Positions 11,437 through 41,535 of a DNA stretch of 64,000 nt are shown piece after piece. Positions within the stretch are counted from its first letter, which is position 1, and each line of letters starts with the position of its first letter. Source of the DNA: Alphaproteobacteria bacterium (lineage in GTDB: Bacteria > Pseudomonadota > Alphaproteobacteria > MPNO01 > UBA830); contig OZ251539.1 of the NCBI GenBank assembly GCA_965243135.1, positions 2,689,812 through 2,753,811 of the forward strand. Reading direction: 5' to 3'. The position numbers and the translations under genes were made by a program. Under the pieces are notes generated by a model. The model was not told the DNA's origin and did no database searches. It saw only the letters and a list, made by a program, of their open reading frames with translations.

Positions 11437-11514
11437 GTTCGACTATCATTTCCCGCCGCGCCGGCTTTCCCGGGCGGGCGGGAAACGCGCTTGCAGGCTG
11501 CGGAGAAACGGAAA

Positions 11515-11676: not shown

Positions 11677-11689
11677 CGGGCCGGCCGCC

Positions 11690-12211
11690 TCAGACCGGCG
11701 CCAGCACCATCACCATCTGACGGCCTTCCATTTTCGGAAACTGCTCGATCCTGCTCGTTCCGTCGAGGTCGCTTCGCACCCGGTCCAGAACGGCGAGGCC
11801 GCGCTCCTGGTGCGCCATCTCCCGGCCTCGAAAGCGCATCGTCACCTTCACCTTGTCGCCGTCGTCGAGAAACTTCCTCATGAACCGCATCTTGATTTCG
11901 TAGTCGTGATCGTCGATTCCGGGCCGAAGCTTGATTTCCTTGACCTCTATCGTCTTCTGCTTTTTGCGGGCTTCGTTCTTCTTCTTCTGCTCCTCGTATT
12001 TGAACTTTCCGTAATCCATGATCTTGCAGACCGGCGGAGCGGCTCCGCCGGCGACGACGACGAGGTCCATGCCTGCATGCGACGCGTAATCGAGCGCTTC
12101 GCTTCGGGAGACAACGCCGATTTGCTGGCCGTCGGCGCCGATCAGACGCACCTCGGTCGCCTGGATCGTTTCGTTCACGGGCCGCTCGTCCCGCACGGGC
12201 GGCGCCATCAT
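11690..12211 (-). CDS. infC: Translation initiation factor IF-3
   Basis: 173 aa aligning to IF-3 ([16 protein letters not shown]...[15 protein letters not shown]...[11 protein letters not shown]). ATG at 12211. Confidence 0.85.
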
Positions 12212-12281
12212 TGGAGGTCTTGCGATGGATTTTCTCCTTTGCTCGTTTGTCTTTCCGGTCCGGCTCGTTCCGCCGTCGGCG

Positions 12282-14208: not shown

Positions 14209-14323
14209 CCAGATTCCAGAATTCGACTGCCGCCGCGCCGGGCGTTTAACGCAATCCCGCCGTCGCGGCAACCTCGGCGCCGCGGTCCGCCGCCGGTTCC
14301 GGCGGCGGCGAGCGGACGTTCCG

Positions 14324-15457
14324 TCATGCTTCGAGAAGTTCGCGGTAAACTGACATCGTCCGGTCGCACATCAGGGTTTTCGTGAAGTTCTTCTCTATAT
14401 GGTCGCGCGTGCGCCGGGCGTTGGCGACCCTCTCTTCGGGCGTCATCGCCAGCGCCTCGCGCAGCGCGCGCGCGAGCGACGCCGGTTCGCGGGCCGGGAC
14501 GAGCCAGCCGTTCTCGCCGTCGATCACCGTCTCCCGCAGGCCGCCGAGGTCGGTCACGATGACGGGACGGCCCATCGCCTGCGCCTCGACGGAGACGCGG
14601 CCGAACGGTTCCGGTTCGACGGGAGCGAAAACCACGGCGTCGGCCAGCATGTAGGCGGCGGCCATGTCGCGGCAGGGCTCGGTCAGGCGCACGATCCCCT
14701 CCAGCCCGTTCCGCCGGATCTGCGCCCGGAGTTTCTTCCGGTAACGCGGGCTGCCGTGGTCCGCGCCGACGAGCAGTATGCGGTAGTTCGGATGATCGAG
14801 CTGGCGGGCGGCCTCGACGAGGACGCTGTATCCCTTGCGTCGGCTCGGCCGGCCGGGCGACATGATGACGTACGCGTCGTCCGGCAGGCACCACTCCCGC
14901 GCCAGCTGGACGATGCGCTCCTGCGACACCGCGTGAGGATCGAAGATGTCGGTGTCGACGCCGCGAGGGATGGTCCGCAGCCGGTCCGCCGGAACGCCGT
15001 AGACTTCCGACACGTGGCGTCTCGTGAATTCGGATACGGCGATGACGAGATCGCCGCTCGCCATGACGCTGTTGTACGGCTTCTTCAACGGGTAGCCGCC
15101 GCCGTAAAGCCCGTGGAAGGTGGTGACGAAGGAAACGCCCTGGCTCCGCGCGGCCGCGCGGGCGCTCCAGGCGGGCGCGCGGCTTCGGGCGTGCACGATA
15201 TCGATTTCGTAGTGGCGGATGATCCTTTCGATGAGCGCCACGTTGCGCCGCATCGTCCAGGGGTTCTTCGAGCACAGCGGCGCCGTTACGTGAATCCCGC
15301 CCGCCCGCTCGACGTCCTTGGTCATGGTGCCGCCGGCCGAGGCGACGACCGCTTTCCATCCCTCGGCCGCCAAGGCCGCGGTGATTTCGACGGTGCCGCG
15401 TTCGACGCCGCCGAATTCCAGACGGGGCAGCACCTGCAGAACGGTGGGAACTTTCAC
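14324..15457 (-). CDS. Glycosyltransferase family 4 (GT1-fold)
   Basis: GTG at 15457 preceded by GAGGAG RBS. EX7E-like region ([30 protein letters not shown]). The ORF-track N-terminal extension was rejected. Confidence 0.75.
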
Positions 15458-21707: not shown

Positions 21708-22639
21708 GCGACCGGCAGAAGGGAAGATGGTTCTCCCGTCTCCGCGACGGGTTGCGGCGCTCGTCGTCCCGGCTGTCCGACGGCATCGGCGCCATTTTCG
21801 CCGGGGGCAGGCTCGACGCCTCGACGCTGGAGGAACTGGAAGAGTTGTTGATCGCATCCGATCTCGGCGTCGCGACCGCGGCCAGGCTTTCGGCGTCGTT
21901 GGCGAAAACGCGCTTCGACGGGGAGGTTTCCGCGGACGAGGTCCGCGAGGCGATGGCGGACGAAATCGCCCGGATCCTCGAGCCGGTCGCCGTGCCGCTG
22001 GCGGCCGACCCCGCTCATCGGCCGCACGTCGTTCTCGTCGCGGGGGTGAACGGTTCGGGCAAGACGACCACCATCGGCAAGCTCGGGAAGCGTTTCGCGG
22101 AAGAGGGCAAGTCGGTCATGTTCGCGGCCGGCGACACGTTCCGGGCAGCCGCGATCGAACAGCTCCGGATCTGGGGCGAGCGGGCGGGCGCCCCGGTCGT
22201 CGCGAGAGATCCCGGGTCCGACGCGGCGAGTCTCGCCTTCGAGGCGGTGGACGCCGCCCGCGAGGCGGGGAGCGACGTATTGATCGTCGATACCGCGGGC
22301 CGGCTGCAGAACCGCGACGACCTTATGCAGCAGTTGCGGAAGATGGTGCGCGTGATCCGGAAGCAGGACGCGACGGCGCCCCACGATTGTCTGCTGGTGC
22401 TCGACGCCACGGTCGGACAGAACGCGCATTCGCAGGTGGAGACCTTCCGCGCTATGTGCGATCTAACGGGTCTCGTGGTGACCAAGCTGGACGGTTCCGC
22501 ACGGGGGGGCGCGCTCGTGGCTTTGGCGGAGAAGTTCGGCCTGCCCGTCCACGCCGTCGGGGTGGGCGAAGGGGAGGACGATCTCCGGCCGTTCGAGGCC
22601 CGGGCGTTCGCGCGCAGCCTGATGGGAATCGCGGACTGA
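21704..22639 (+). CDS. ftsY: Signal recognition particle receptor FtsY
   Basis: ATG overlaps the mtaB stop (ATGA). SRP54-type GTPase motifs GVNGSGKTTT, DTAGR, TKLD. Confidence 0.9.
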   Translation: MSDRQKGRWFSRLRDGLRRSSSRLSDGIGAIFAGGRLDASTLEELEELLIASDLGVATAARLSASLAKTRFDGEVSADEVREAMADEIARILEPVAVPLAADPAHRPHVVLVAGVNGSGKTTTIGKLGKRFAEEGKSVMFAAGDTFRAAAIEQLRIWGERAGAPVVARDPGSDAASLAFEAVDAAREAGSDVLIVDTAGRLQNRDDLMQQLRKMVRVIRKQDATAPHDCLLVLDATVGQNAHSQVETFRAMCDLTGLVVTKLDGSARGGALVALAEKFGLPVHAVGVGEGEDDLRPFEARAFARSLMGIAD

Positions 22640-23085
22640 CGGCGTTCGGGGAGCGGCAAGAATTCGCGCCCTCGCAGTCGAACGGTCGACAAGTATTTGA
22701 TGGGAGACGACCAAGGACGTATGAATGCGAAGCGCTCCGGGCATACGGTTCATGGACATGAGGGCCAAGCCGTGGTGTCTGGCGCGCAAGGGAGGCGGGC
22801 ACCACGGTGCGGTCGGTCGGCGACAATGAGGCGGACAATGAGCGGTTCGTCATGCGGACAATGATCGCTTGCCTTAAGGCTAGCGTTACCTATAGGAAGT
22901 TCGACCGGGATGCGAACAATAGAAGGTGCCGCTACGCGCCCGGCGAGAAGCTCGCTTTGACATACGAGCCGTATTCAGTACGCTTGCGCTGCGTGTTGGC
23001 AGCGCTTCGCCTTCCGTCGACCGAAGCGCGGGCGACCCGGTCAATCGTCACGCACGGCTTCGGCATTGTGCGAAGAGGGCTCTAA

Positions 23086-23779
23086 CATGCGGATCGAGCC
23101 GGAGATCGATGGGATTAATATCGTTTTGGTCGGCGATTTCAATCCGACTGTGTTCACGCCGGCGTGGTTCGCGCTGCATGAATTCCTGCCGAAGCCCGCC
23201 GCGGACGGCGCAAAGGTGGATACCATCCATCCGCAGTTAACGGTTTTTTCCTTCGATTGGCTCCGCTTGCAGGTCGGAACGGATCGCTTTGTCGCTGAAA
23301 CCGTGCAGGCACCCTATATTCGTGTATGCGACTTCGTCGGGCGCGTATTTACGGAACGCCCGGGTCAATCGTCGCTCAGGGCACTCGGAATCAACCGCGG
23401 CGTTCATTTTCGGGTGCGGGATCGCGCCGATATGGATCGCATCGGCAGAACTCTGGCGCCGGTGAAACCTTGGGGCTCTTGGGGACGAGGTCTCGAACCC
23501 GGCGGCGGGCATGGCGGCATGGCATCGCTTACAATGTCGCAAGTCAAAATCGAAGGAAGGCCATCCGACGACCGGATCAACGTTAGAGTGGAACCGTCTG
23601 ATCTAATTACTGGTCAAGGACGCGCCGGGATTCGCGTGCATGTCAACGATCATTATACAACGAGCGATACGGGTCCTGGAGCCAGTGAACGTTTGTTGAC
23701 AATTATCAAGAGCGGTTTCGATGGCTCCTTGGCGCAAAGCGGCGAAATCGTCGATCATGTCATGTCCTTGGCAGAATGA
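23086..23779 (+). CDS. Hypothetical protein (231 aa)
   Basis: Coherent ORF in the lower-GC segment; ATG at 23086. No recognisable domain. Confidence 0.4.
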
Positions 23780-23794
23780 CAGGAAATCCGGTCG

Positions 23795-24394
23795 ATGCAT
23801 CAGGCAGATCTCTCCACCGCAATGTCGCAAGCCAATAGGTCCGAGACGCGCGATAGTTTCGACTCGGAAATCGCGCATGAGGATATCGTTCGGCGTGCGG
23901 TGGCAAGGTTCGATCTCGAGTTCAGGCGCGGGATCGACGCTACCCAGGGAACCAGCACGCACCAGGCCAACGCGAGTTCCCGATCGCCTGTTACCGACCG
24001 TAGGCAGGTCGACCTTTCCCGAATCGTGGATTTGCCGAGATTGCCGGTTCGGCGAATGCCCGCGACGCGGTTTCATGCCCTGCAGGAGTGGGAGGGCTAT
24101 GTCGTCGAGATCGGCGGCAAGGAATTCACGGCGCGGCTGACCGACATCACGGCCGGAGCGTCGTATGAGCAGGAAGAAGCGATTATCCCCCTTTCGGAGG
24201 TCTCGGACGGCGATGCCGAGAAGATGCGCGAGGGGAGCGTCTTCCGCTGGGTGATCGGTTACGAACGCTCTGCCTCCGGAACCAAGAAGCGCGTTTCCCA
24301 GATCGTGTTTCGCGACCTTCCGGCGATCACCGAGGCCGACCTGCGAGCCGGCAAAGCGTGGGCACGGGAGACGATGCGGTCGTTCGGGTTGTGA
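23795..24394 (+). CDS. Hypothetical protein (199 aa)
   Basis: ORF with a protein-like C-terminal half (LQEWEGYVVEIGGKEFTARLTDITAG...). Overlaps the start of the next gene. Confidence 0.35.
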   Translation: MHQADLSTAMSQANRSETRDSFDSEIAHEDIVRRAVARFDLEFRRGIDATQGTSTHQANASSRSPVTDRRQVDLSRIVDLPRLPVRRMPATRFHALQEWEGYVVEIGGKEFTARLTDITAGASYEQEEAIIPLSEVSDGDAEKMREGSVFRWVIGYERSASGTKKRVSQIVFRDLPAITEADLRAGKAWARETMRSFGL

Positions 24395-25801
24395 CGGCGG
24401 CGGAAACGCTTCCGGGACATGACGAGATCGAACTTGCGCTTTTCGGCCCGGGGTACGGCGAGAGCGTCGTCATGCATATCGGCGACGGTGAATGGGTGGT
24501 CGTCGACTCCCGCATCGACAAGGACGGCAGACCGAACGCTCTGACCTATCTGGAGAACCTCGGCCTCGATCCGGCCGAAGTTGTCGTTCTGATCGTGGCG
24601 ACTCACTGGCACGACGACCATATCCGCGGGATGGAGCGCGTGGTCGAGGCACAGGGCCCGCTTTTGTTGCTCGGCTGCGCTAGGTCTCCAGGAATTTCTT
24701 TCCATTGTCGGCGCTCTCGAAGACCGCAGCTTTTCCGGTTTCGGTTCCGGGGTTCGGGAACTTCACGGCGTCTTCACCCGACTTCGCGGAGCGGCGTCGA
24801 GGCCGACGTTCGCCCTCGCCAACCAACGCGTTCCCATGCGCAACGAGTGCGAGATCTGGTCCCTCTCGCCCGACAGCGGAGTCTTCCAGAATTTCCTGAA
24901 ATCTATCGACGGTCTCGTGCCCGGCACCGGTCAAACCAAGGCTCGACTTCCCGGCCCGACGCCCAACGAGGCGGCGGTCGCGCTCTGGGTCGAGGTCCAA
25001 GACATCGCGGTATTGCTTGGGGCGGACTTGGAGAAGTCGGGCTGGACAGTCATTTTGCGAAGCAAGGAGCGTCCTGTCGGCAAGGCGTCGGCGTTCAAGG
25101 TCCCGCATCACGGATCCGCGAACGCCGACGAACGGGAGGTATGGACGCGAATGTTGGAGTCGGCTCCCTTCGCCGTGCTTGCGCCTTGGCGCAGAGGCGG
25201 CCATGCCCTTCCGGGCGAGAACGACGCGCAGCGCATTCTTTCGCGCACAGGGAATGCCTACGCGACCGCGAAAGACAGCCGACGTGCGCCCAGGCGCCGG
25301 GAAAGAATGGTCGAGCGGAGCATCCGGGAGTCCGGCCTCCAACTTCGAGAGCTGGCGATGTCCCCCGGCTGGCTTAGGTTACGGCGGCCGCTCCACCCAA
25401 AGGCGCAATGGTACAGTCGAGAAGTTTGGGACCGCGTGCCATCTCAAGGACTTCGCTGCGCCGTAGCCGACCGCGACGGCGGGCGTCCGACAAAGCCCGC
25501 GCAAGTCGGCCCGATCAAGCGCGGCCGCCGATCGTCGAACCCGAGTCCGAAAGCGCGAGGAGACTTCATTTCCGGCGACCATCGCACTTCCGAAGGAGCG
25601 CGGCGGCCGTTGACGCCCTCGCGGGCGGGTGCTGTCCTCGCAGCTGTCTACGGACGCGGAGGTTTCCGTTCGCGCTCTGGCTTCATGGGGAGCCCGCGGG
25701 TAATCAACGGAGAAGCGAAGTCGCGAAACAAGACCGGCAAAATCATCGGCCGCGCCCACGATTGCGGCGATTGCAAACGGTTTGCGCTTTCGCCGATATA
25801 G
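24358..25801 (+). pseudogene. MBL-fold metallo-hydrolase (ComEC-like beta-lactamase fold), disrupted by at least one frameshift
   Basis: Frame 1 encodes HxHxDH (IVATHWHDDHIRG) then degenerates near 24660-24700. Frame 2 continues with protein-like sequence including the KVPHHGS motif (24836 onward) and a non-protein-like Arg-rich tail. Confidence 0.4.
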
Positions 25802-25844
25802 GGCGGCTCGACGCCGCTGTCATCACGAACAACGGAAACGCGAA

Positions 25845-26888
25845 ATGACCGAATCCAGACGATCTTTTCTCGGCAGCGGCGTTGCCGCGGCGCTGGGAGC
25901 CTCCGCGTTGGCCGCGTCGGCGGCGCATGGCCGCCCGACGATTCGCTGGCGCCTTCAGACCTATGCGAATCCGGCCCTTGCGGAACATGTCGTCAAGCCC
26001 GCGGTGGACGCTTTCAACCGGGCCGCCAACGGCGAAATGGAGATCGAGCTCTTTTTCGCCGACCAGCTCGCGCCCGCAAGCGAGCTTTTCGAGGCGTTGC
26101 GGAACGGCACGGTCGACATCGCGCAATCCGACGACGATTCGATCGCCGCTCCGACCGACGTATCCGTGTTCGGAGGCTATTTTCCGCTTGCCCTGCGATA
26201 CAGCCTCGACGTGCCCGTCCTGTTCAGCCGCTACGGGCTCGGCGAAATCTGGGATGCCGCCTACGCTGAAGTCGGCGGCGTCAAATGGCTGTCGGCGGGC
26301 GCGTGGGACCCGTGCCATTTCGCGACAAGGAAACCGATCCGGCGGCTGGCCGATCTGGAGGGCAAACGCATTTTCACCTTTCCGACCGCCGGACGCTTTC
26401 TCCGGAGATTCGGGGTAGTCCCCGTCACGCTGCCATGGGACGAAGTGGGATCGGCGATGCGGAACGGGGCGCTCGACGGCATCGCGTGGTCGGGAATCAC
26501 GGAGAACTACACGGTCGGCTGGGCGGACGTGACCGAATACTTCCTCACGAACAACATCTCGGGGGCCTGGATCGGCCATTTTTTCGCGAACGAGGATCGC
26601 TGGAACGCCCTTCCTGAGCACCTCAAAACGTTGTGGCGTCTGGCGATGGATTCGTCCCATTATTACCGTCAGCACTGGTACTGGGGCGGCGAGGCCGATC
26701 TCAGGACTCGGGGATCCAGAATGCAACTCACCTCCATTCCGGCCGAGGAATGGGCCACGGTCGAAGCCGAGGCCGACCGGTTCTGGGACGAGATTGCGGC
26801 AGTCAGTCCGCGTGCGAGGCAAGTGGTCGAGATTTTCCGGCAATACAACGCCATCATGGCGAAAGCGGGCCAACCTTACCGCTGTTAG
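25845..26888 (+). CDS. Solitary TRAP-type substrate-binding protein (DctP family) with a Tat signal
   Basis: MTESRRSFLGSGVAAALGASALAASAAHG twin-arginine signal; DctP-like domain. No dctQM adjacent. Confidence 0.8.
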   Translation: MTESRRSFLGSGVAAALGASALAASAAHGRPTIRWRLQTYANPALAEHVVKPAVDAFNRAANGEMEIELFFADQLAPASELFEALRNGTVDIAQSDDDSIAAPTDVSVFGGYFPLALRYSLDVPVLFSRYGLGEIWDAAYAEVGGVKWLSAGAWDPCHFATRKPIRRLADLEGKRIFTFPTAGRFLRRFGVVPVTLPWDEVGSAMRNGALDGIAWSGITENYTVGWADVTEYFLTNNISGAWIGHFFANEDRWNALPEHLKTLWRLAMDSSHYYRQHWYWGGEADLRTRGSRMQLTSIPAEEWATVEAEADRFWDEIAAVSPRARQVVEIFRQYNAIMAKAGQPYRC

Positions 26889-27334
26889 TTCGGCGGCTTT
26901 TTCCGCTCTTGTGCCGGCTCGCCGCGCTTCTGCCCGGCGCGCCGAGGAAAGGAGAAAACTGATCGTATGCGCCAACTCTTTGTCCGTCGCGCAGCCGACT
27001 TCGAGTCGGGGCTGCCCGCCTGCGAGGTTGGCGAGATCCTGCCGGCCCCTGCCGCCCGGCTGCGTTCTCCTTGCGGCGAATTGACTCGCCAGCCCCCCAA
27101 CGGCGGAAACTGCCGGTCGTCTGCGTTGCGCTTCCGACCTCGTAGGGGGTATATGATCGCCAAGATTTTCGTAGACCTTTCCGGGAGCTTCGGTACTGTC
27201 TGGCTCGGGAAAATTTTCTCGCTTCGCGGCAGTTCGTCCATTGGCGATGACGCCTCCTCTGCGGCTACCCGCGAATGCTGTCCGTCTTGGCGGGAATTGA
27301 CGTAATCTTGGCGCATGCGCTTGAGGAAGAGGCC

Positions 27335-30300
27335 ATGGAACCGCCTCCACGGGCAGTTTACGACGACCCTGCACGCCACTGGGACTTCTTGACCCGGCCC
27401 TCGGACGACGACTTCGAAGGTCAGCACTTCGACCGCAAGGAGGCTGGCCAAAGGACGAGCGAAGCTCGGAGACTCGAAAAGCAACTGAAACGACTCCGGG
27501 ATGGTATCGCCGAAACGGTTTCCGCCTTCGCCAACAGCAATGTCGAGGGCGGCCTCCTCGTGATCGGAATCGCTTCCAACGGCGCCGTCGAAGGCGTCAA
27601 CCATCTGACGGAGCGGCAGAAGAACAGCCTCACCGACATTGGGAGCCTGCTCCACTTTCAGGCGGCCGAAGCGAAGCTTCACGTATGCACGGACTCAGCT
27701 GGCCAAAGCAACGCCATCTGTCTGATCTATACCCCCTATGCGGACAGCGGCATCTGCGAAACGCCGGGATCTGCACCGAAAGCGTGGGAGCGACGCGGCC
27801 CCCAGAACGTGCCCGTTACGCTGGAGATGCGAGAGCGGCTCAGAGACAGGAAAAATCTTTCGAATTTCGAAAATGCGTTCTGTTGCCCCTATGACCCAAC
27901 CGATCTCTCGAATGACGTTCTTGCGGAGTTCCGCAAGGTGTTTCTCCCGGAAGCGGTTAAGGACTTCTCGGACGAACGGCTGCTTTATGAGGCGGGGGCG
28001 CTGATCCGCAGGGATGGAGAATACTGGTTTACGAATGCCGGGCTTCTGTTCTTCGGATCGAATCCGCAACGGGTGCTTCCTGCATCGCACGTCCGCTTGT
28101 TGCGATTCGGAGCGATCTCTGGGGATTTCGCTAAGCGCGGGCTGCCTACATTCGACCAGAAGTTTACGGGCCCGGTAACGAAGCAGATCCGCGAAGCGAG
28201 GACGTTCTTCAGAGAATCCGCGTTCTTCAAGCGATATCAAAAGCGTCGGGAGGCAGGCGGCTTCGCCGAGGAACCCGAGTTTCCGCCCACCGTCATCGAC
28301 GAGGCCATAGTGAACGCCGTGGCGCATCGGGACTATCGGACCGCCATACCGATCGAATGCGAAGCCTACGCGGATGCCTTCGTCGTCAAGAACCCAGGCC
28401 GGATGACGCAACGTGACGCCGATCTTCCATCCCGTTTCTCGTTGGCGGATGTCGTGCTCGACTCGATGCCTAGGAATCCCAAGATTTTGGAGTGGTTGAA
28501 GCTGATGCGGGATCCCCGCGGCGCAGCGTACGTACAAGCCATCAGCGAAGGCACGAAGCAGATGGTCACGGCCATGGAAGATCTCGGATTGCCCGCTCCT
28601 TCATTCCGCCTGGCCTCGAACGAGACATTGATCAAGATCGAAAGCAAAGCTGAAGAACGCGAAGCCGCTATCCTGGCCGCGAACGAAGACAAGCCAACGG
28701 AATTCTGCAATCTGTTTCTCCTGAGGTTTCGACAGCAAGGAAATCCGGTCGGGTACGATGCCTTCGGCTCGCGGTATGGAGAGATCGTCAAGACGCTGCG
28801 CGACGCTCTCAAGGGAAACGGATGGCATATCGACAGGGATGGATTCAGCAGGATATTGGCGCATAGAAAAGGCATGGAGCTTGAAGCGCCGGAAGACGTG
28901 AGATCCATTTTGCGTTTCTATCCAGCGTACGAATTCCAGATTCGAGAGTATCATCGGCGCTATTATTTGTGCATCGACTATAAATGCTTGGCTCTCAACG
29001 TAAGGAAGCTCTCCGTTGCGAGACAACGACTCGCCCGAACCGATCTGGAAGGCCGACGTTGCATCGCGGAGAAGCACGGATGGAGGGAAGGCCGTCTGTC
29101 TGAATTCGGCGACGAATTCGCGCAAGTCCGGTTCTTTGATACCGAAACGGAAGAGTCCGTTTCCGTCGATAAAGTTATTCCCAATGTCTCCAATGCGATG
29201 TTGGAAACCATGCTGAAGAAGGAAGGATCCTCGTTCGATTTCTCTGCTGCGCTCCGAAAGCACAGTTTGGTCACGAGGTCGAACGCCGCGAAGGAACGGG
29301 CGGAGAGAACGCTGACTATGGCGAATCATATTGCGGATACGGTGTTTCCATTGCGACATTGCGACCTCGACATAGACGTCGTTTCCGATCCGGTTCGACT
29401 TTCTGAACGAAAAGGATCTTCGAAAGGCGAAATGTTCGTTCGACGCTTGCCGGAGCCGGAGGCGGAGTTTCGGCAACGCGAGCTGTCGCGAGATATCCGG
29501 ACCGGAATCACGAAGTACGGTGCATATGACGATCAACCGCAGCGGATCGAGCTGATTCCCGTTTGCACGAATTCGATGCGAAAGGGAATGGAAAAATTGA
29601 TCGGTCGCTTGGTAGGGGGACGGCATAGATACCGTGGATCCGAACGCACTTTTGCGGCGGAGTTCTCGTATTCGACGATCGTCTCCGTGGATCGCGTCGA
29701 AAATATCCGGGGAGAAATCGAACGTCTGCTGGACCGGCGGCCAAAAGGCCACGCCGACGCACGGTCCCTCTTTCTCGTTTACGCTCCGGAAGAGGGCTAT
29801 TCACGCGATGACCATACGGCGCCATATTTCGCCAACAAGAGACTGTTGCTGGAAAGAGGCGCGCCCTGTCAGATGGTTGATACGCCGACACTTGAGAACG
29901 CCGATTGGAAGGACCTGAATCTGGCCTTGAACATCTGCGCCAAATGCGGCGTTCGACCCTGGGTCTTGCCCGATAGAATCCCGGAAGCGGATTTTTTCGT
30001 GGGACTGTCCTATACGCAATCCGAAGACGGTCGGCGAATCATGGGTTTTTCCAACGTATTCAACAGCTACGGCAGGTGGGAGTTCTATCGCGGAAATGCC
30101 TCGTATTTTGATTTCGAGGATCGAAGCGTTCGGCTTGCCGGTTTGATTGAATCAACGTTAGAAAGACTCGAATCCCGACTGTCTTCGACTCCTCGTGTGG
30201 TGTTCCAATACTCCGCAAGGCTTTCGCGGCTTGACCGGATGGCGATTCTCAGGGCAGCCCGCAAGATTCGTCCGGAAGGAATTTATTCTTTCGTCTGGAT

Positions 30301-30697
30301 TAACTCCCATCACAATATACGATTCTATGACAGTCGTCCAGACACGGACGGAAGTCTTCGCCGGGGCAGCTACGTTGAGGCGGGCGCGAATAAGATATAC
30401 CTGTCGACAACCGGTTACAATCCGTATCGCCGGGCCATGGGAACGCCGAAACCGCTAGAAGTCTCTGCTTTTGTCGACCGACCGGACAGCGACGGCCACC
30501 AACCTGATCTTCGGATATTGGCCTTGCAGGTTTTGAGTCTCACTAAGCTGAATTGGGCTTCCACGGATGCGTTTTGCGGGGAGCCGATCACGCTCAAGTA
30601 CGCCAGAGACATAGCCTATTTGACGGCCGCTTTCCTGCGCCAATCGGAGCCGTTCAACCTTCATCCTTCTCTGGAGACGACGCCATGGTTCATTTAG
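27335..30697 (+). CDS. Fusion protein: Schlafen-like AlbA_2 + HATPase_c_4 (COG2865) N-terminal module, linker/APAZ-like region, then Argonaute MID and catalytically inactive PIWI domains (pAgo)
   Basis: Single 1120-aa ORF; alternative ATG at 27275, preferred ATG at 27335 with GAGGAAGAGG RBS. N-terminal EGQHFDRKE...VSAFANSNVEGGLLVIGI (AlbA_2) and IDEAIVNAVAHRDYRT...VVKNPGRM (HATPase_c_4). MID: PYFANKR...APCQMV...NLALNICAKCGVRPWVL (Y-K-Q-K pocket plus KxGG-PW motif). PIWI: ADFFVGLSYTQ where the first catalytic Asp is replaced; C-terminal ...LKYARDIAYLTAAF...TPWFI tail. Confidence 0.7.
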   Translation: MEPPPRAVYDDPARHWDFLTRPSDDDFEGQHFDRKEAGQRTSEARRLEKQLKRLRDGIAETVSAFANSNVEGGLLVIGIASNGAVEGVNHLTERQKNSLTDIGSLLHFQAAEAKLHVCTDSAGQSNAICLIYTPYADSGICETPGSAPKAWERRGPQNVPVTLEMRERLRDRKNLSNFENAFCCPYDPTDLSNDVLAEFRKVFLPEAVKDFSDERLLYEAGALIRRDGEYWFTNAGLLFFGSNPQRVLPASHVRLLRFGAISGDFAKRGLPTFDQKFTGPVTKQIREARTFFRESAFFKRYQKRREAGGFAEEPEFPPTVIDEAIVNAVAHRDYRTAIPIECEAYADAFVVKNPGRMTQRDADLPSRFSLADVVLDSMPRNPKILEWLKLMRDPRGAAYVQAISEGTKQMVTAMEDLGLPAPSFRLASNETLIKIESKAEEREAAILAANEDKPTEFCNLFLLRFRQQGNPVGYDAFGSRYGEIVKTLRDALKGNGWHIDRDGFSRILAHRKGMELEAPEDVRSILRFYPAYEFQIREYHRRYYLCIDYKCLALNVRKLSVARQRLARTDLEGRRCIAEKHGWREGRLSEFGDEFAQVRFFDTETEESVSVDKVIPNVSNAMLETMLKKEGSSFDFSAALRKHSLVTRSNAAKERAERTLTMANHIADTVFPLRHCDLDIDVVSDPVRLSERKGSSKGEMFVRRLPEPEAEFRQRELSRDIRTGITKYGAYDDQPQRIELIPVCTNSMRKGMEKLIGRLVGGRHRYRGSERTFAAEFSYSTIVSVDRVENIRGEIERLLDRRPKGHADARSLFLVYAPEEGYSRDDHTAPYFANKRLLLERGAPCQMVDTPTLENADWKDLNLALNICAKCGVRPWVLPDRIPEADFFVGLSYTQSEDGRRIMGFSNVFNSYGRWEFYRGNASYFDFEDRSVRLAGLIESTLERLESRLSSTPRVVFQYSARLSRLDRMAILRAARKIRPEGIYSFVWINSHHNIRFYDSRPDTDGSLRRGSYVEAGANKIYLSTTGYNPYRRAMGTPKPLEVSAFVDRPDSDGHQPDLRILALQVLSLTKLNWASTDAFCGEPITLKYARDIAYLTAAFLRQSEPFNLHPSLETTPWFI

Positions 30698-30949
30698 CGA
30701 GTTCGAGGCCCGGATCAAGTCGGTGGTCCGGCTTTCAGACGGCGAATCGAAAATTTCACGCCTCCTGACATCGCGTAAATCCAACTCCGGCGACCGTTTC
30801 CTTCCCGACGCCGCGCTGCGACCTCGCCAGTATTGCGCGGATCCACCTGTTGCGGCGCAGGCGCCCGAACCTTCGGCGACGGAAGCCGCGCGCCGCGTCG
30901 GCGTGAACGCAAGCTTTGCGGCAGGCGCTCCCGGCTTTCCGTGCTGCAG

Positions 30950-31657
30950 CTACGCGCCGCTCCCTATGGCGACCGCGTTCTTGTGAACGTCGTCGTACAT
31001 CAGATGCTGGATTTCGAGCATCTGGCGAACGGTCTTGAGCACGAGCGTGCGCTCGTCCTCCGTGCGAGCGAACTGGTCGAGAAGCTTTCGGCCGACATCG
31101 GAATGCTCTTCGTCCGCACTGTCGTGGATCACCCAGTAGGCGACCTCTTCGTCGCTCAAACCGAACTGTTCCTGGAGATTGCGAGCGATCTTGACGTACA
31201 GTCCGGGTATCGCCGCCTCGCCCGCCAGCATGTGCGCGGCGACGCCTTCCAGGAAGCTTTTCGAGCAGATTTGGGTGAAATAAGCCTGAAACGCCACTAC
31301 GCCGGCGCAATACGGGGGATCGTACATTTGTTCCGGCGTCAGCCCCATGCCCCTCGCGTAATCGAGATAGAGCCGGTGGTGCGAGACTCCGTTTGACATC
31401 AGGCGCCCGGTCGCCTCTTCGAAGGCCACTTCGGCGATCAACTCGCGCCAAGCCGGATCGGGACAGATCACGTAGAGATTGCCGTGATAGTTGTGATTGT
31501 GGAGCGGTATGCCGCCATGCTGCTGACAGATGTAGCGCGACTGCTCCAGATTCCACCTGCCCTCGACCATGCCGGTCCAGAGCGGATGTCCATACATCGG
31601 CAGTTCCCCGTGGATTTCCGAAATCCGATCGAGCACGCCCTGCGTCGTCAATGTCAT
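30950..31657 (-). CDS. TenA / PqqC / heme-oxygenase-like family protein
   Basis: 235 aa from ATG at 31657 (AGGAG RBS). All-alpha composition with conserved His/Glu/Tyr positions typical of the TenA_C fold. Confidence 0.55.
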   Translation of the reverse strand: MTLTTQGVLDRISEIHGELPMYGHPLWTGMVEGRWNLEQSRYICQQHGGIPLHNHNYHGNLYVICPDPAWRELIAEVAFEEATGRLMSNGVSHHRLYLDYARGMGLTPEQMYDPPYCAGVVAFQAYFTQICSKSFLEGVAAHMLAGEAAIPGLYVKIARNLQEQFGLSDEEVAYWVIHDSADEEHSDVGRKLLDQFARTEDERTLVLKTVRQMLEIQHLMYDDVHKNAVAIGSGA

Positions 31658-32401
31658 CGTGCGTCTCCTGGCAGACCGAAAGCGCATTGAACATATCCTT
31701 CGGCCGCAAACCGGTCGAGCGCCCGGCGTGGCAGCGCCGCCTTGCATGGGTTGCAGGCGTCAGGATCGGACGCGGTCCTTGTTCCGACGCCGGAGTCGCG
31801 TCTTCCGCAGAGCATAGTCCGCACGGCTGCGGAGCGGAAACAAATCGCGATCCTGAAGCTCGGCGTGGAAAACTGTCGACGGTCGGCACGGCTGGATCAA
31901 TTGCGCTTTGGTCCCTTGCGTCTCTTCGGGACACCATCCTCCGGCAGACCGGTTCTTGCCGCTTCTCCACCTCGCGAAGCGCACTCTCCGGTGCCAGGCG
32001 AAGCTTCTCGACCTTCGGAAGTCTCCGGAGCGCCGCTGTCGGCGCCCTCCCCGACCGGCGTCGTCTCGGGCGTCGCAGGCTGAATGTGCGGCCGCCATGG
32101 CGGCCGCGAGAAAAAGGCGTCCGGAAGAGCGATTCGCTAAACCCTGTTCACGCTCCGCGAGCGAACGGCCTACGCCGGGTCCTCTGGTTTCCGTCTTTGA
32201 AACGCGCTCGACTTGAACTTCTTGAATCGCAGGTCCATCGCCTCGTCCGAACGAGCTGGCGGCCCGCAAGACGCGGCGGATCTCTCGATGCGAACGCTTT
32301 TTCAGAAAAGACGGAAAACGCGATCTCGTCGCAAGTCAATCGATCACGCGGAAATCGTCGAAAACCATGAAGCCATGCAAAAGTAAACGCCGTTGGGAGG
32401 A

Positions 32402-33253
32402 TCAAAGGCTGCGGGCGTGGACGCGCTTCAGGAAGTCGATCACCTGGCCGTTGAAACGGTCCGCGTGTTCGATGTTCGGGCAGTGTCCGCAGTTTTCGTA
32501 GACATGATGCTCGTTGTCGGGGATGCGCTCGGCCAGTTCGTGGGAATAGCCCTGACTGCGCAACGGATCGTTGGCGCCGGCGACGATCAGAACCGGTACC
32601 GCGACGTTCTCGTAGACCGTGTCGTCCGGCACGCCGAAACCCTGTTTCGCGCCTTCGTTCCGCTCCTGGCGCTTGAGACGCGGCGCGGACGCGCATTCCC
32701 AGGCGCCCGGCAGCAGCGCCATTTCCTGGCGCTTCGCCACGTACGCGTCGTCGTCGCCCCATTTGGGGTCGTCGAGCATGGCGTGAAGGAGTGCCCGCAT
32801 CGCTTCCGCGGTTCCGTCGTACGCGAGCAACGTCTTCCGCTCCTCCGTCAGCGGCGTGAACCCGCCGCCCGAACACAGCACGGCCGACCGCACCGGCAAA
32901 ATCGGCGGCGGGTCGGCGATGATCCGCGCAAGATTGGATCCGCCCATGGAATTTCCCACGAAATCCGCCTCGGAGATCCCGAGCTCCTCGAAGAAACGTT
33001 GCATGTGGCGGTATACGCGCCCGCGCGGGTCGGCGAAATCGAACACCTTGTCCGTGCGCCCGAACCCGAGCCAGTCCGGCGCGACGACGTGGAAATGCTC
33101 GGCGAGCGCCGGGACGGCGAACTCCCAGCTGATTTCGGCGCAGCCGCCGAATTCGCCGGAATGCAGCAAGGCCACCGTCGGCGCGCCGGGGTCGCCCGCC
33201 TCCAGATAGTGAGTGTTGACGCCGTCGACGGCGACGTATTTCGATTCGATCAT
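32402..33253 (-). CDS. Alpha/beta hydrolase (meta-cleavage-product hydrolase-like)
   Basis: HSGEFGG, GNSMGG nucleophile elbow, C-terminal NCGHCPNIEH. ATG at 33253. Confidence 0.75.
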   Translation of the reverse strand: MIESKYVAVDGVNTHYLEAGDPGAPTVALLHSGEFGGCAEISWEFAVPALAEHFHVVAPDWLGFGRTDKVFDFADPRGRVYRHMQRFFEELGISEADFVGNSMGGSNLARIIADPPPILPVRSAVLCSGGGFTPLTEERKTLLAYDGTAEAMRALLHAMLDDPKWGDDDAYVAKRQEMALLPGAWECASAPRLKRQERNEGAKQGFGVPDDTVYENVAVPVLIVAGANDPLRSQGYSHELAERIPDNEHHVYENCGHCPNIEHADRFNGQVIDFLKRVHARSL

Positions 33254-36746: not shown

Positions 36747-38375
36747 TCATTGCACCCAGTAATCCGAGGAAGGATCGCCTTTGACGGTTTCTTCGGGCGA
36801 CCACTCGCCGATGATCAGGCCTTTCCTGCGGGCGCCGCCGGTGCGTTTGCGGACCGCCTCCTCCGATATCGAGATACGGGTGCGGCGCTTGCGCAGCCAC
36901 GCGAAAATCCGTTCGTGCATCTCGGCGCGGACATCCGCGTGGTCGGGACTGCTTCCAAGGTCGCGAAATTCTTCGGGATCGGTCTCTAGATCGAAGAGCT
37001 GCGGCCGATAGCCTTCGTACAGGATGTATTTCCAGCGGTCGGTGCGCGCCATAAACGCCCGCGCATCCGCAGGTTCGATGCCCAGGTAGCTGCGCGCGGG
37101 CTTGAACGCGAAGTCGCTTTCCGAGAAGACGGCGTCGCGCCATTCGCCGTTCCGCCCGCTTCGCAGCGCCGGAAGAAGGGACCGCCCCTCCAGCACGTGG
37201 CCAGCGTCTTTCCAGCCGCCGAAGAGGTCGAGGAAGGTCGGGATCAGGTCGATCGATTCGACGAACAGATCGTTCCGGGTTCCCCGCGTTCCGTCGGCCG
37301 CCGAATCCGGATCGTAGACGACGAGCGGTATCCTGACCGAACAATCGTGGAACATCTCCTTCTCGCCGAGCCAGTGATCGCCGAGGTAGTCGCCATGGTC
37401 CGAAGTGAAGACGATCAAGGTATCGTCCATCCTGCCGCTCGCTTCCAGCCATTCGAACAGGATTCCCAGCTGATCGTCGATCTGCTTGATCAGCCCCATG
37501 TACGCCGGGACGACGTTCGCGCGCACCTCGTCCATGGCGAAGCTGCGGCTTTCCGGATGCTTCATGTGCGCCGCGATCACCGGGTGGGGATCGTCCAGTT
37601 CCGTTCGCGACCGCACGGCGGGCAGGATCTGGTTTCGTCCGTACGCGGCGTGATACGGCGCCGGCGCGACGTAGGGCCAGTGCGGCTTGATGTAAGAAAG
37701 ATGCAGCAGGAACGGCGCGTCGCCCTGTCGTTCCATGAACTCGATCGCGCGGCGGGTCATGTAGGGCGTTTCGGAATCCTCTTCCCTGATTCGCGCCGGC
37801 AGGTGGTTGTTTCCGAGATACCAGCCGGACAGGATTTCGCCGTCGGGGCCCTCCGCCGAGTTCGCCCAGTCGTGCCACGGGTTGTCGCCATCGTAGCCTT
37901 TCGACCTCAGGTAGCGGTTGTAAGCGTAATCGGGATCGACGACCGCGTCAGGCCACAGGCCGTCGTCGCGTTCGACGGGTTCCAGCCCGCACTGGGAGGC
38001 GAGTCCGCCGAGACTCGAGGCCGGATCCACGCCCAGCCTCTTCATGCCGTCGCGGTCGGGGGCCATGTGGGTCTTGCCGACGAGGGCGCAACGCAGGCCG
38101 CGCGGCCGCATCCAGTCTCCTATATTCGGTTGCCCGACGGACAGCGGAACGTCGTTCCAGGTGGCGCCGTGGCTGAACATGTAGCGTCCGGTCAGGAACG
38201 ACATGCGCGACGGACCGCAAAGGGGGGACTGAACGTAGGTTTGCGTAAAGTTGACGCCGCTTGCCGCCAGCCTGTCGACGTTCGGCGTTTCCAGGTGCGG
38301 ATGCCCGTTGCAGGAGAGGTAGTCCCAGCGCAACTGGTCGCACATGATGAACAGAATGTTTCGTACCTTGCCCAT
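36747..38375 (-). CDS. Sulfatase (arylsulfatase / choline-sulfatase family)
   Basis: FIMCDQLRWD, SPLCGPSRMSFLTGR (C-x-P-x-R formylglycine motif), GKTHM, SDHGD. ATG at 38375. Confidence 0.85.
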   Translation of the reverse strand: MGKVRNILFIMCDQLRWDYLSCNGHPHLETPNVDRLAASGVNFTQTYVQSPLCGPSRMSFLTGRYMFSHGATWNDVPLSVGQPNIGDWMRPRGLRCALVGKTHMAPDRDGMKRLGVDPASSLGGLASQCGLEPVERDDGLWPDAVVDPDYAYNRYLRSKGYDGDNPWHDWANSAEGPDGEILSGWYLGNNHLPARIREEDSETPYMTRRAIEFMERQGDAPFLLHLSYIKPHWPYVAPAPYHAAYGRNQILPAVRSRTELDDPHPVIAAHMKHPESRSFAMDEVRANVVPAYMGLIKQIDDQLGILFEWLEASGRMDDTLIVFTSDHGDYLGDHWLGEKEMFHDCSVRIPLVVYDPDSAADGTRGTRNDLFVESIDLIPTFLDLFGGWKDAGHVLEGRSLLPALRSGRNGEWRDAVFSESDFAFKPARSYLGIEPADARAFMARTDRWKYILYEGYRPQLFDLETDPEEFRDLGSSPDHADVRAEMHERIFAWLRKRRTRISISEEAVRKRTGGARRKGLIIGEWSPEETVKGDPSSDYWVQ

Positions 38376-38498
38376 GTCTGCGTTTCGCTCCGGTTGTTCC
38401 GTCTGTTTGATAGCACGGCGAGCGGCTCGCCGCCCGCGCGCGGGAATGCGCAAAGGCCGTCGCGCGGCGCGTCCCGCCCGCCCCTTTCGGACAGGGGT

Positions 38499-41323: not shown

Positions 41324-41535
41324 GGTCGGCCGTCCGCACGGCCCTCGCGGACTTGTCGGCGGACGGAGTGCCGGTCGCCGAGCGGACGGCAAAGAATCGG
41401 CGCGGCGCGAACGCTTCTCGCTTCGGCGGCGACGGTCTTTTCCATGTCGTGATATCGAGCGAATCGTCGGCAGCGATTCTTCCGGCGGGTCTCGGGTAAG
41501 AATCCCAACTCCGCGGCCGAGCGTTTTCGCGGGTC

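What the first reader, a model, noticed from the sequence alone, without database searches (positions are those of the whole stretch)
22640..31660. Lower-GC accessory segment between ftsY and a TenA-like gene that carries the pAgo fusion
Directly after the ftsY stop (22639) the composition drops from about 68% to roughly 55-60% GC by eye. The segment contains two hypothetical genes (23086-23779 and 23795-24394), a frameshifted MBL-fold gene, a solitary Tat-secreted TRAP binding protein, and the Schlafen-pAgo gene, followed by ~750 bp of non-coding DNA (31658-32401). No integrase, tRNA or direct repeats mark the borders, so an old horizontally acquired defence island is the best explanation I can offer.
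Basis: seen in the sequence. Interest (0 to 1): 0.5.

Follow-up and report, generated by a model that had tools for sequence, protein, structure and literature searches.

The report
Decaying defence island beside ftsY
The low-GC stretch after ftsY is a patchwork of imported anti-phage genes: an intact Schlafen-Argonaute gene, and a broken copy of a widespread, still unnamed three-gene cassette flanked by scraps of a restriction-like (Hma) system. It is an ordinary kind of island, but the cassette is a good lead.

Summary
Window 22640-31660 is 59.7% GC against 66.9% outside and is the lowest 9-kb stretch of the 64 kb. Codon usage of hyp1, hyp2, the MBL gene and the pAgo lies 5-11 SD from 12 native genes.

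The dip has two troughs, each a mobile module.
- Module 1 (22987-25463): hyp1, hyp2 (OB-fold) and a ComEC-like MBL hydrolase form a conserved cassette, found in the same order in seven other contexts. These include the inside of an Hma locus, a plasmid and a predicted viral contig. Here the MBL gene is dead (5-bp deletion plus 1-bp insertion). In a 99%-identical strain a MITE breaks the same gene. Remnants of a DUF7680 gene and of a DUF1156 (Hma) methylase flank the cassette.
- Module 2 (27335-30697): an intact SLFN-pAgo, a family described in a 2026 preprint. Its closest homologues sit inside Hma operons, and homology to them is confined to the coding sequence.

The TRAP binding protein is compositionally intermediate. 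The "TenA-like" gene is native-like, so the island ends near 30697. There is no integrase, tRNA or flanking repeat. The left border is a synteny breakpoint that is also variable in relatives.

Verdict: a partly decayed defence island. The only novelty is that the cassette is undescribed.

The parts
22640..22986 (.). Unassigned spacer between the ftsY stop codon and the start of homology to other copies of the cassette. The synteny breakpoint lies here.
   Evidence: GC of 22640-23065 is 0.615. No Rfam or Pfam match. The alignment to the ~96% strains L065/L066 is gapped here. Homology to L148 starts only at 22987.
22987..23082 (+). 3' remnant of a DUF7680-like gene. In L148 that gene immediately precedes the cassette inside an Hma locus.
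   Evidence: It is part of one continuous 2497-nt, 77% identical alignment between window 22987-25459 and L148 7906-10401. It shares 53% identity over 32 aa with the C-terminus of the L148 DUF7680 protein and is collinear with it.
23087..23779 (+). Cassette gene A (hyp1, 230 aa): an uncharacterised alpha/beta protein that is full length here.
23795..24394 (+). Cassette gene B (hyp2, 199 aa): a disordered N-terminal half followed by a C-terminal OB-fold domain.
24391..25463 (+). Cassette gene C: a ComEC-like MBL-fold hydrolase, here a pseudogene with a 5-bp deletion near 24651 and a 1-bp insertion near 25414.
   Evidence: tblastn with intact homologues runs frame 1 (24391-24657), then frame 2 (24653-25411), then frame 3 (25413-25460). 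Both indels are seen in DNA alignments and neither lies in a homopolymer run. The HxHxDH motif (THWHDDH) is present. Intact homologues match PADLOC LmuA (1.8e-10), DRT-associated RTasMBL (1e-11) and PDC-M48B, and the ComEC MBL domain in the PDB.
25530..25798 (+). 5' remnant of a DUF1156 (HmaB-type N6-adenine methyltransferase) gene, truncated after about 107 codons. The part from 25598 to 25798 is well supported. The upstream part is inferred from a frame-shifted resemblance.
   Evidence: 65 nt are 78% identical to L148 15518-15582, which lies in its DUF1156 gene. The ARRPLxxSRA motif matches three DUF1156 proteins at the same position. The Smith-Waterman score against the L148 N-terminus is 54, against 27 +/- 4.7 in shuffles, with 0 of 2000 shuffles reaching it. 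Pfam itself does not detect the remnant.
25845..26888 (+). Orphan DctP-family TRAP solute-binding protein with a Tat signal peptide. It is not a defence gene and is compositionally intermediate.
   Evidence: Pfam DctP 1.5e-21, covering 264 of 286 profile positions; NCBIfam TRAP_S1. Codon z is -3.2 and GC3 is 0.77. It has no homology to any of the related loci.
27335..30697 (+). Intact SLFN-pAgo (1120 aa): Schlafen nuclease, then GHKL ATPase, then a catalytically inactive long-B Argonaute core.
   Evidence: Full-length match to PADLOC pAgo model PDLC02394 at 1584 bits. Pfam SLFN_AlbA_2 and HATPase_c_4. Motifs EGQHFDRK, SAFAN and EAIVNAVAHRDY are present, and only 7 conservative deviations occur in 353 columns that are >=95% conserved. 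The best PDB match is the long-B RsAgo. Homology to L146/L147 covers only 27306-30697. GC is 0.558 and codon z is -8.9.
30950..31657 (-). The 'TenA-like' gene: a haem-oxygenase-like iron-containing redox enzyme (CADD-like). It is most likely native and lies outside the island.
   Evidence: Pfam Haem_oxygenas_2 3.6e-18; NCBIfam CADD 60 bits, below the 200-bit cut-off. Codon z is -1.3, within the native range. It is on the same strand as the hydrolase/monooxygenase cluster to its right.
31748..32401 (.). Unexplained non-coding stretch between the CADD-like gene and the alpha/beta hydrolase gene.
   Evidence: GC is 0.619. No Pfam match in six frames, no Rfam match, and no remnant of DUF499, DUF1156 or the helicase.

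Best explanation
The segment is a partly decayed, mosaic defence island. It sits at a synteny breakpoint immediately 3' of ftsY, and its low GC comes from two horizontally mobile modules.

Module 1 (22987-25463) is a three-gene cassette: an unknown alpha/beta protein, an OB-fold protein and a ComEC-like MBL hydrolase. It arrived as a piece of an Hma / type-1 BREX-related locus, as in relative L148. Since then the Hma core (DUF499 ATPase, helicase, most of the DUF1156 methylase, most of DUF7680) has been deleted. The MBL effector gene has been knocked out, so this module is inferred to be non-functional here. By analogy, an intact cassette probably works as a nucleic-acid-sensing nuclease system: the OB-fold protein and hyp1 would sense or hold in check the MBL nuclease, which would degrade DNA. 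That mechanism is inference only.

Module 2 (27335-30697) is an intact SLFN-pAgo. It most likely works as shown for RzAgo. The inactive Argonaute core is loaded with small RNA guides and held in inactive filaments. [quoted passage not shown] It needs no partner gene.

The TRAP binding-protein gene lies between the two modules, at the place where the body of the DUF1156 gene should be. It is cargo or filler, not defence. The island ends at the pAgo stop codon.

Whether both modules came in one event (one Hma locus carrying both) or in separate events is not settled. I put a single origin at about 0.4.
For: Composition and codon usage.

The cassette is conserved in gene order and size:
- L148, inside an Hma locus.
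- L149/L150, among housekeeping genes.
- The Adhaeribacter swui plasmid, beside a recombinase.
- L152, among transposases, HNH, WYL and a PIN-Phd pair.
- L153/L154, beside a resolvase.
- The IMG/VR contig L155, beside an S24 repressor.
- A natural hyp1-hyp2 fusion exists.

Hma remnants flank the cassette at positions collinear with L148. The L148 DUF499 protein matches PADLOC HmaC at 3e-93.

The MBL gene carries two lesions here and an independent MITE insertion in strain L064. hyp1 shows relaxed constraint within the species: pN/pS is about 0.5-0.6, against 0 for ftsY.

The pAgo matches the family model over its full length, has intact motifs and is not degenerate. The family and its mechanism are described in bioRxiv 10.64898/2026.05.29.728809. 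Its nearest homologues (80-81% aa) sit between the DUF1156 and DUF499 genes of Hma operons. More distant homologues (53-65%) occur in Binatia, Bacillota, Rhodothermaceae and Bacteroidota.

Both modules are lower in GC than most of their neighbours in every locus examined.

The ftsY-cassette junction is confirmed by three independent metagenome assemblies. Relatives keep the genes upstream of ftsY but nothing downstream. In those relatives the 0.2-3.5 kb after ftsY is itself variable.
Against: - No integrase, tRNA or flanking repeats were found, so the insertion mechanism is unknown.
- No genome at intermediate distance was available. The best FtsY relative is 78% identical, and otherwise only >=96% DNA-identical strains were found. 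An empty site could therefore not be shown and the right border rests on codon usage alone.
- No Hma remnant flanks the pAgo, and homology to the Hma-embedded homologues stops at the ends of the coding sequence. This argues against a single origin.
- The DUF1156 remnant is not recognised by Pfam.
- The defence role of the cassette rests on context and distant MBL similarity only. hyp1 and hyp2 match nothing in PADLOC.
- Expression and activity of the pAgo are untested.
- Presence of the pAgo and TRAP genes in sister strains could not be checked because those contigs end at window 25064.
Confidence: 0.72

Rival explanations
1. The island is a single locus. One Hma / BREX-related locus that already carried both the three-gene cassette and the SLFN-pAgo as embedded cargo was inserted once after ftsY and then lost its core genes by deletion. 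The TRAP gene now occupies the place of the DUF1156 gene body.
For: The cassette lies inside an Hma locus in L148. The pAgo lies directly after the DUF1156 gene in L146/L147. In the window the order is DUF7680 remnant, cassette, DUF1156 5' remnant, then the pAgo. This is collinear with a composite of those loci.
Against: No DUF1156 3' end or DUF499 5' end was detected next to the pAgo. A TRAP gene with only mildly atypical codon usage lies in between. The cassette and the pAgo lie 770 kb apart in the genome of L146/L152.
Confidence: 0.4
2. The cassette is not an immune system. It could be a DNA-processing, repair or uptake module, or a toxin-antitoxin-like addiction module of mobile elements, which merely hitch-hikes in variable regions.
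For: hyp1 and hyp2 match no PADLOC model. The nearest solved MBL relatives include the ComEC competence nuclease. In L149/L150 the cassette stands among housekeeping genes.
Against: The cassette occurs inside an Hma operon, in a transposase / TA / HNH / WYL island, beside resolvases and on a predicted viral contig. The MBL is closest to defence-associated MBLs: LmuA, DRT-associated RTasMBL and PDC-M48B. It is consistently low in GC and patchily placed. The effector gene has been inactivated repeatedly in one species, which is typical of costly defence genes.
Confidence: 0.25
3. There was no horizontal transfer. The genes are native, and their low GC reflects gene-intrinsic constraints or weak expression.
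For: The low GC of both modules is seen in every host, so it is partly a property of the genes. The left part is present in all same-species strains found.
Against: Codon usage lies 5-11 SD from native genes. The modules occupy unrelated loci in other genomes, including a plasmid and a viral contig. pAgo homologues of 53-65% identity occur in at least four distant, named bacterial lineages, and the family's phylogeny is reported as incongruent with the species tree. Family-level relatives have other genes after ftsY.
Confidence: 0.07
4. The segment is a remnant of a classical integrative element, either an integrase-mediated genomic island or a prophage.
For: Cassette copies elsewhere lie beside serine recombinases or resolvases and a prophage-type repressor.
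Against: The segment has no integrase, recombinase, tRNA, att-like repeat or phage gene. hyp1 has no match in the phage collection.
Confidence: 0.05

Closest known systems
SLFN-pAgo (RzAgo of Runella zeae; Kuzmenko et al., bioRxiv 2026, 10.64898/2026.05.29.728809)
   Same: The architecture and size match: 1120 aa, with Schlafen AlbA_2, then GHKL, then a long-B Argonaute core. The E(x)4DxK motif and the SAFAN box are present. It is a stand-alone gene in a defence-type neighbourhood with patchy phyletic distribution.
   Different: Sequence identity to RzAgo itself was not measured because its sequence was not at hand. This copy is in a high-GC alphaproteobacterium. Its nearest homologues are inserted between the methylase and ATPase genes of Hma operons. 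The preprint reports only a loose 'near BREX' association. Activity is untested.
Hma system (PADLOC; HmaA helicase, HmaB DUF1156 methylase, HmaC DUF499 ATPase), also called the type-1 BREX-related system (NAR 2026, PMC12839542)
   Same: The related loci L146, L147 and L148 are such systems. The window keeps a DUF1156 5' fragment and the tail of a DUF7680 gene at collinear positions.
   Different: The window has no DUF499 ATPase, no helicase and no intact methylase. The system is extinct here and only its embedded cargo survives.
Defence-associated MBL-fold effectors: the Lamassu LmuA hydrolase type, the DRT-associated RTasMBL and PADLOC candidate PDC-M48B. Also the ComEC MBL nuclease domain.
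   Same: Intact homologues of the window's MBL gene match these at E 1e-7 to 1e-11 over the MBL core with its HxHxDH motif.
   Different: The partner genes differ. There is no LmuB/LmuC SMC, no reverse transcriptase and no PDC-M48A. The partners here are hyp1 and the OB-fold hyp2, which match no PADLOC, Pfam or NCBIfam model.
Defence islands in the sense of Makarova, Wolf, Snir and Koonin 2011 (from memory)
   Same: Several immune modules cluster in a compositionally foreign, variable chromosomal spot and are in decay.
   Different: The island is small (about 8 kb), has no mobility gene, and only one of its modules is demonstrably intact.

Membership tests
SLFN-pAgo (Kuzmenko et al. 2026) | Extra-long pAgo of 1071-1187 residues | tested here: met
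   The protein is 1120 aa from 27335 (1140 aa from the first ATG at 27275). The 100%-identical database entry P0001 is 1120 aa.
SLFN-pAgo (Kuzmenko et al. 2026) | N-terminal Schlafen AlbA_2 domain (PF04326) with the E(x)4(D/E)xK nuclease motif and the SAFAN box | tested here: met
   PF04326 scores 35 bits against a cut-off of 25.3. EGQHFDRK is at residue 28 and SAFAN at residue 63.
SLFN-pAgo (Kuzmenko et al. 2026) | GHKL ATPase domain (PF13749) after the Schlafen domain | tested here: inconclusive
   PF13749 scores 25.4 bits, just under its 26-bit cut-off. The N-box-like motif EAIVNAVAHRDY is present and invariant in the family alignment. ATP binding is untested.
SLFN-pAgo (Kuzmenko et al. 2026) | Long-B Argonaute core (PAZ-MID-PIWI) lacking the PIWI catalytic tetrad | tested here: inconclusive
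   There is a full-length match to a pAgo model at 1584 bits. The best solved relative is the long-B RsAgo at E 1e-10. The tetrad positions were not mapped residue by residue.
SLFN-pAgo (Kuzmenko et al. 2026) | RNA-guided recognition of DNA that triggers tRNA cleavage and abortive infection | not testable with these tools
   This needs biochemistry and phage assays.
Hma / type-1 BREX-related system | DUF499 (HmaC) AAA+ ATPase | tested here: not met
   tblastn with three DUF499 proteins against 22400-32600 gave no hit better than E 0.27. The window has no such gene.
Hma / type-1 BREX-related system | DUF1156 N6-adenine methyltransferase | tested here: not met
   Only a remnant of about 70-107 codons survives, at 25530-25798. 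Pfam does not detect it.
Hma / type-1 BREX-related system | SNF2/helicase-nuclease (HmaA) | tested here: not met
   The L147 helicase gave no significant tblastn hit.
Integrase-mediated genomic island | Integrase or recombinase, tRNA or other att site, and flanking direct repeats | tested here: not met
   Searches found none of these.
Integrase-mediated genomic island | Atypical composition, and absence from the same locus in relatives | tested here: met
   Composition. Relatives with 70-77% identical FtsY have other genes after ftsY. No closer empty site was available.
Lamassu | LmuB SMC-like ATPase (with or without LmuC) encoded with the LmuA effector | tested here: not met
   The only match is domain-level LmuA similarity of the MBL. 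The neighbouring genes are hyp1 and hyp2, which have no PADLOC match.
TRAP transporter | DctQ and DctM membrane subunits encoded with the DctP binding protein | tested here: not met
   The neighbours of 25845-26888 are the DUF1156 remnant and the pAgo. The rest of the window was only partly annotated.

The most novel reading that the evidence does not exclude
The hyp1 - OB-fold hyp2 - ComEC-like MBL hydrolase cassette may be a previously undescribed, widespread anti-phage or anti-plasmid system. The hyp1 family has about 2,266 representatives at 50% identity, none annotated. The cassette travels as self-contained cargo, often inserted into Hma / BREX-related operons as the SLFN-pAgo is. Such operons would then act as landing pads that collect extra effector modules. 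The window would hold a copy being purged, with its effector gene knocked out independently in two strains of one species.
Probability: 0.45. Interest if true: 0.65.

Novelty: new member of a known kind. Interest (0 to 1): 0.45.

Why it matters
The island itself is an ordinary feature of bacterial genomes, and its headline gene belongs to a family that was described in 2026. Three points are worth keeping.

1. It exposes a conserved three-gene cassette with thousands of relatives and no annotation in Pfam, NCBIfam or PADLOC. Its contexts and its nuclease-type effector make it a credible new immune system that can be tested with an intact copy, for example the one on the Adhaeribacter swui KCTC 52873 plasmid.

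2. It shows that both the SLFN-pAgo and this cassette are inserted inside Hma / BREX-related operons in related bacteria. This supports the idea that such operons accumulate backup effectors.

3. It is a clear snapshot of defence-system turnover. The core restriction-like system has been deleted. One module has been inactivated twice independently within a species. Another module is kept intact.

Tried and rejected
- **Synteny with relatives to define the borders.** Genome and metagenome scans with FtsY found nothing between 78% aa identity and >=96% DNA identity. The family-level relatives share no gene with the 41 kb downstream of ftsY. No empty site could therefore be shown.
- **Exact-sequence look-ups** of the pAgo (two start codons, and P0001), the TRAP protein and the hydrolase returned nothing. 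The state of the pAgo in sister strains remains unknown.
- **Cluster look-up** gave no organism names.
- **Remnants next to the pAgo.** A search for remnants of DUF499, the DUF1156 3' end or the helicase beside the pAgo and in the 650-bp gap found nothing.
- **Flanking repeats, RNA genes, promoters and terminators.** Nothing above chance. A 38-nt, 71% repeat at 25571 and 30786 was dismissed as chance.
- **The L064 MITE** has no copy in the window.
- **Plasmid and phage collections.** Only one plasmid carries the cassette, and the phage collection has no match.
- **First codon-usage run.** Three native genes were out of frame, so the run was discarded and redone.
- **Lamassu, DRT and PDC-M48 membership** was rejected for lack of the partner genes.

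Full report
**Observation.**
The composition drop is real. Window 22640-31660 has 59.65% GC, against 67.6% to its left, 66.4% to its right and 66.9% outside overall. It is the lowest 9-kb window of the 64 kb. The drop is not uniform. One trough lies at 23.0-24.5 kb (58-60%) and a deeper one at 27.5-31.0 kb (54-57%). The 24.5-26.5 kb stretch between them is 63-65%.

A codon-usage test was run against 12 Pfam-verified native genes. These have GC3 0.826 +/- 0.027 and a log-likelihood per codon of -0.919 +/- 0.039. The z-scores are hyp1 -11.4, the MBL gene -8.3, the pAgo -8.9 and hyp2 -5.3. The TRAP binding protein is intermediate at -3.2. The 'TenA-like' gene is within the native range at -1.3 (the first attempt had frame errors and was discarded).

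The only tRNA in the window is tRNA-Arg at 8751-8827. There are no convincing flanking repeats, no Rfam hit in 20-36 kb and no integrase in or beside the segment. One refinement is that the compositionally foreign part ends at the pAgo stop codon (30697).

**The Argonaute gene.**
The 1120-aa product of 27335-30697 matches PADLOC pAgo model PDLC02394 end to end at 1584 bits. It also has Pfam SLFN_AlbA_2 and, just under threshold, the GHKL-type HATPase_c_4 domain.

A 2026 preprint (bioRxiv 10.64898/2026.05.29.728809) defines exactly this family as SLFN-pAgo:
- Long-B-clade Argonautes of 1071-1187 residues, with an N-terminal Schlafen nuclease and a GHKL ATPase.
- An E(x)4(D/E)xK motif and a SAFAN box.
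- Spread by horizontal transfer, with no fixed partner gene.
- For RzAgo, RNA-guided recognition of DNA that releases tRNA cleavage and abortive infection.

The window protein has EGQHFDRK, SAFAN and EAIVNAVAHRDY. It deviates at only 7 of 353 columns that are >=95% conserved in 40 homologues, and all seven changes are conservative. Its best solved relative is the long-B RsAgo. The gene looks intact and functional.

Apart from a 100%-identical entry on a 6.1-Mb contig, presumably the source genome, the nearest homologues are only 78-83% identical. Homologues of 53-65% identity occur in Binatia, Bacillota, Rhodothermaceae and Bacteroidota.

**Context of the closest pAgo homologues.**
In L146 and L147 (81% and 80% aa identity) the gene lies between a DUF1156 methyltransferase gene and a DUF499 ATPase gene, with an SNF2/NOV_C helicase gene upstream. 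This is the Hma system of PADLOC, also called the type-1 BREX-related system (PMC12839542; HmaC match).

Nucleotide homology between the window and these loci covers 27306-30697 only, that is, the coding sequence plus about 30 nt. tblastn found no remnant of DUF499, the DUF1156 3' end or the helicase next to the pAgo. In both loci the pAgo gene is 6-10 GC points below its neighbours.

**The 'two hypothetical genes plus frameshifted MBL gene' are one cassette.**
hyp1 (23087-23779) and hyp2 (23795-24394) match nothing in Pfam, NCBIfam or PADLOC. Both belong to large, well-conserved and unnamed families:
- hyp1 has 512 clusters at 90% identity and 2266 representatives at 50% identity, nearly all about 230 aa.
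- hyp2 has 1314 clusters at 90% identity.

Wherever I could look, the same triplet recurs in the same order: about 233 aa, then about 202 aa, then an MBL hydrolase of about 361 aa. The contexts were:
- L148, inside an Hma locus, in the order DUF499, DUF7680, cassette, two STAND-type ATPases, DUF1156.
- L149/L150, among housekeeping genes.
- The Adhaeribacter swui plasmid NZ_CP055155, at 27% identity, beside a recombinase.
- L152, among transposases, HNH, WYL and a PIN-Phd pair. This is the same genome as L146, 770 kb away.
- L153/L154, in a Bryobacterales MAG beside a resolvase.
- L155, an IMG/VR contig, beside an S24/HTH repressor.

One representative, P0386, is a natural hyp1-hyp2 fusion. 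In each locus where GC was measured (L148, L149, L151), the cassette genes are 4-18 GC points below most neighbouring genes.

**What the cassette proteins look like.**

Intact MBL homologues match defence-associated MBL effectors in PADLOC: LmuA at 1.8e-10, the DRT-associated RTasMBL at 1e-11, and PDC-M48B. In the PDB they match the ComEC MBL nuclease domain.

From this I infer a nucleic-acid-sensing nuclease system. This is inference from context and folds, not a demonstrated function.

**State of the cassette in the window.**
The MBL gene (24391-25463) is a pseudogene. It has a 5-bp deletion near 24651, absent from strain L064 and from L148, and a 1-bp insertion near 25414. Neither lies in a homopolymer run. 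tblastn steps through three frames.

In L064, which is 99.2% identical in the flanks, the 5-bp deletion is absent. Instead a roughly 190-bp MITE, with 18-nt perfect terminal inverted repeats and a 9-bp target duplication (CATATCGGC), splits the same gene. The effector gene has therefore been knocked out twice independently within one species.

hyp1 evolves under relaxed constraint between strains. Its pN/pS is about 0.5-0.6, against 0 for ftsY. The counts are small.

**Hma remnants flank the cassette.**
A single 2497-nt alignment at 77% identity links window 22987-25459 to L148 7906-10401. It begins about 100 nt before hyp1, in what is the 3' end of the DUF7680 gene in L148. That piece is 53% identical over 32 aa.

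Directly after the MBL stop codon, window 25598-25798 aligns with residues 40-107 of the L148 DUF1156 methylase. The evidence is:
- a 65-nt match at 78% identity;
- the ARRPLxxSRA motif;
- a Smith-Waterman score of 54, against 27 +/- 4.7 in shuffles, reached by 0 of 2000 shuffles;
- the DNA alignment.

Pfam does not detect the remnant. The geometry fits a DUF1156 gene starting about 15 nt after the MBL stop. The cassette therefore entered, or once resided, in an Hma-type locus whose core genes have since been deleted.

The TRAP gene (25845-26888) sits where the body of the DUF1156 gene should be. In L146/L147 the pAgo follows DUF1156 directly. The whole island could therefore be one decayed Hma locus. 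However, the lack of remnants beside the pAgo leaves separate insertions equally possible.

**Borders and relatives.**
Three independent metagenome contigs carry the identical FtsY followed by the cassette. L064 is 99.2% identical in DNA and L065/L066 are about 96% identical. The junction is therefore real and predates that divergence.

The next relatives in both large collections have only 70-78% identical FtsY. They keep the upstream block, including mtaB, but share no gene with the 41 kb downstream of ftsY in the window.

Among themselves these relatives conserve a DOPA-dioxygenase-like gene, an amidohydrolase gene and ffh downstream of ftsY. These are separated from ftsY by 0.2-3.5 kb of differing genes, several of them low in GC3: an MFS transporter, DUF4198, and a hydrolase with a luciferase-like monooxygenase. 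The 3' flank of ftsY is thus a variable spot in this group. In the window's lineage it is also a rearrangement breakpoint.

The right flank of the island is an accessory metabolic cluster with native codon usage. It contains:
- the CADD-like gene;
- two hydrolases;
- two luciferase-like monooxygenases;
- a sulfatase;
- an acyl-CoA dehydrogenase.

**Verdict.**
The island runs from about 22987 (at most 22640) to 30697. It consists of a dead copy of an undescribed three-gene cassette flanked by Hma debris, an orphan TRAP binding-protein gene, and an intact SLFN-pAgo.

The kind of feature is well known and the pAgo family is already described. The one lead worth pursuing is the cassette, which appears to be an unannotated, widespread candidate defence system.

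Noticed in passing
L064:4377-4570 (insertion point corresponds to window ~24480): A roughly 190-bp MITE-like element lies inside the MBL gene of a 99%-identical strain. It has 18-nt perfect terminal inverted repeats (CAGCAATTCCCGCTAAGG) and a 9-bp target duplication (CATATCGGC). No copy of it is present in the window.
   Followed up: partly
L146:9711-9934 and 13467-13589; L147:9716-9837 and 13483-13706: In the Hma operons that carry the closest pAgo homologues, the pAgo gene is bracketed by 120-220-bp direct repeats. These repeats duplicate the junction between the DUF1156 3' end and the DUF499 5' end. The 57-aa ORF upstream of the pAgo appears to be a copy of the DUF499 start. This looks like the scar of a cassette insertion.
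   Followed up: partly
P0386 (438 aa, from the representative library): This is a natural fusion of hyp1 (residues 1-229) and hyp2 (residues 255-437, 49% identical to the window's hyp2). It suggests that the two proteins act together.
   Followed up: yes
window 42241-44295 (-), with low-GC spot 41500-43000: This gene fuses ankyrin repeats to a YhgA-like (Transposase_31) domain. Its codon usage is foreign (z = -7.5, GC3 0.73). Two unannotated small ORFs lie beside it at 41544-42271. Together with the sulfatase gene at 36747-38498, the ankyrin repeats hint at a host-associated (for example sponge-symbiont) lifestyle. That is my inference only.
   Followed up: partly
window 59500-61500: A second small low-GC spot (59-62% GC) holds ORFs with no Pfam match at 59776-60360 (-), 60506-61207 (+) and 61075-62124 (-).
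   Followed up: partly
L001, L002, L004, L005, L007, L057: the 0.2-3.5 kb after ftsY: In relatives with 70-77% identical FtsY, the space between ftsY and a conserved DOPA-dioxygenase-like gene holds different genes in each genome, several of them low in GC3. Examples are an MFS transporter, DUF4198, and a hydrolase with a luciferase-like monooxygenase. The ftsY 3' flank seems to be a recurrent variable spot.
   Followed up: partly
L148:7480-8004 and 11069-15396: The Hma locus of L148 also carries a DUF7680 gene and two STAND-like ATPase genes (ATPase_2; AAA_16 plus TPR). These lie between the DUF499 and DUF1156 genes, next to the cassette. Several cargo modules are therefore embedded in one operon.
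   Followed up: no
window 31748-32401: About 650 bp of DNA has no ORF support and no Pfam or Rfam match. It holds no remnant of the Hma genes. Its nature is unexplained.
   Followed up: partly
window 23795-24064 (N-terminal part of hyp2) compared with L065: There are 12 non-synonymous and 1 synonymous differences between strains about 4% divergent. They fall in the predicted disordered N-terminal half of hyp2. This indicates either relaxed or diversifying selection. The counts are small.
   Followed up: no
window 24473-25064 compared with L064: The MBL region is 96.6% identical between the two strains, whereas the preceding 4.4 kb is 99.2% identical. This indicates faster decay or a recombination tract.
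   Followed up: no
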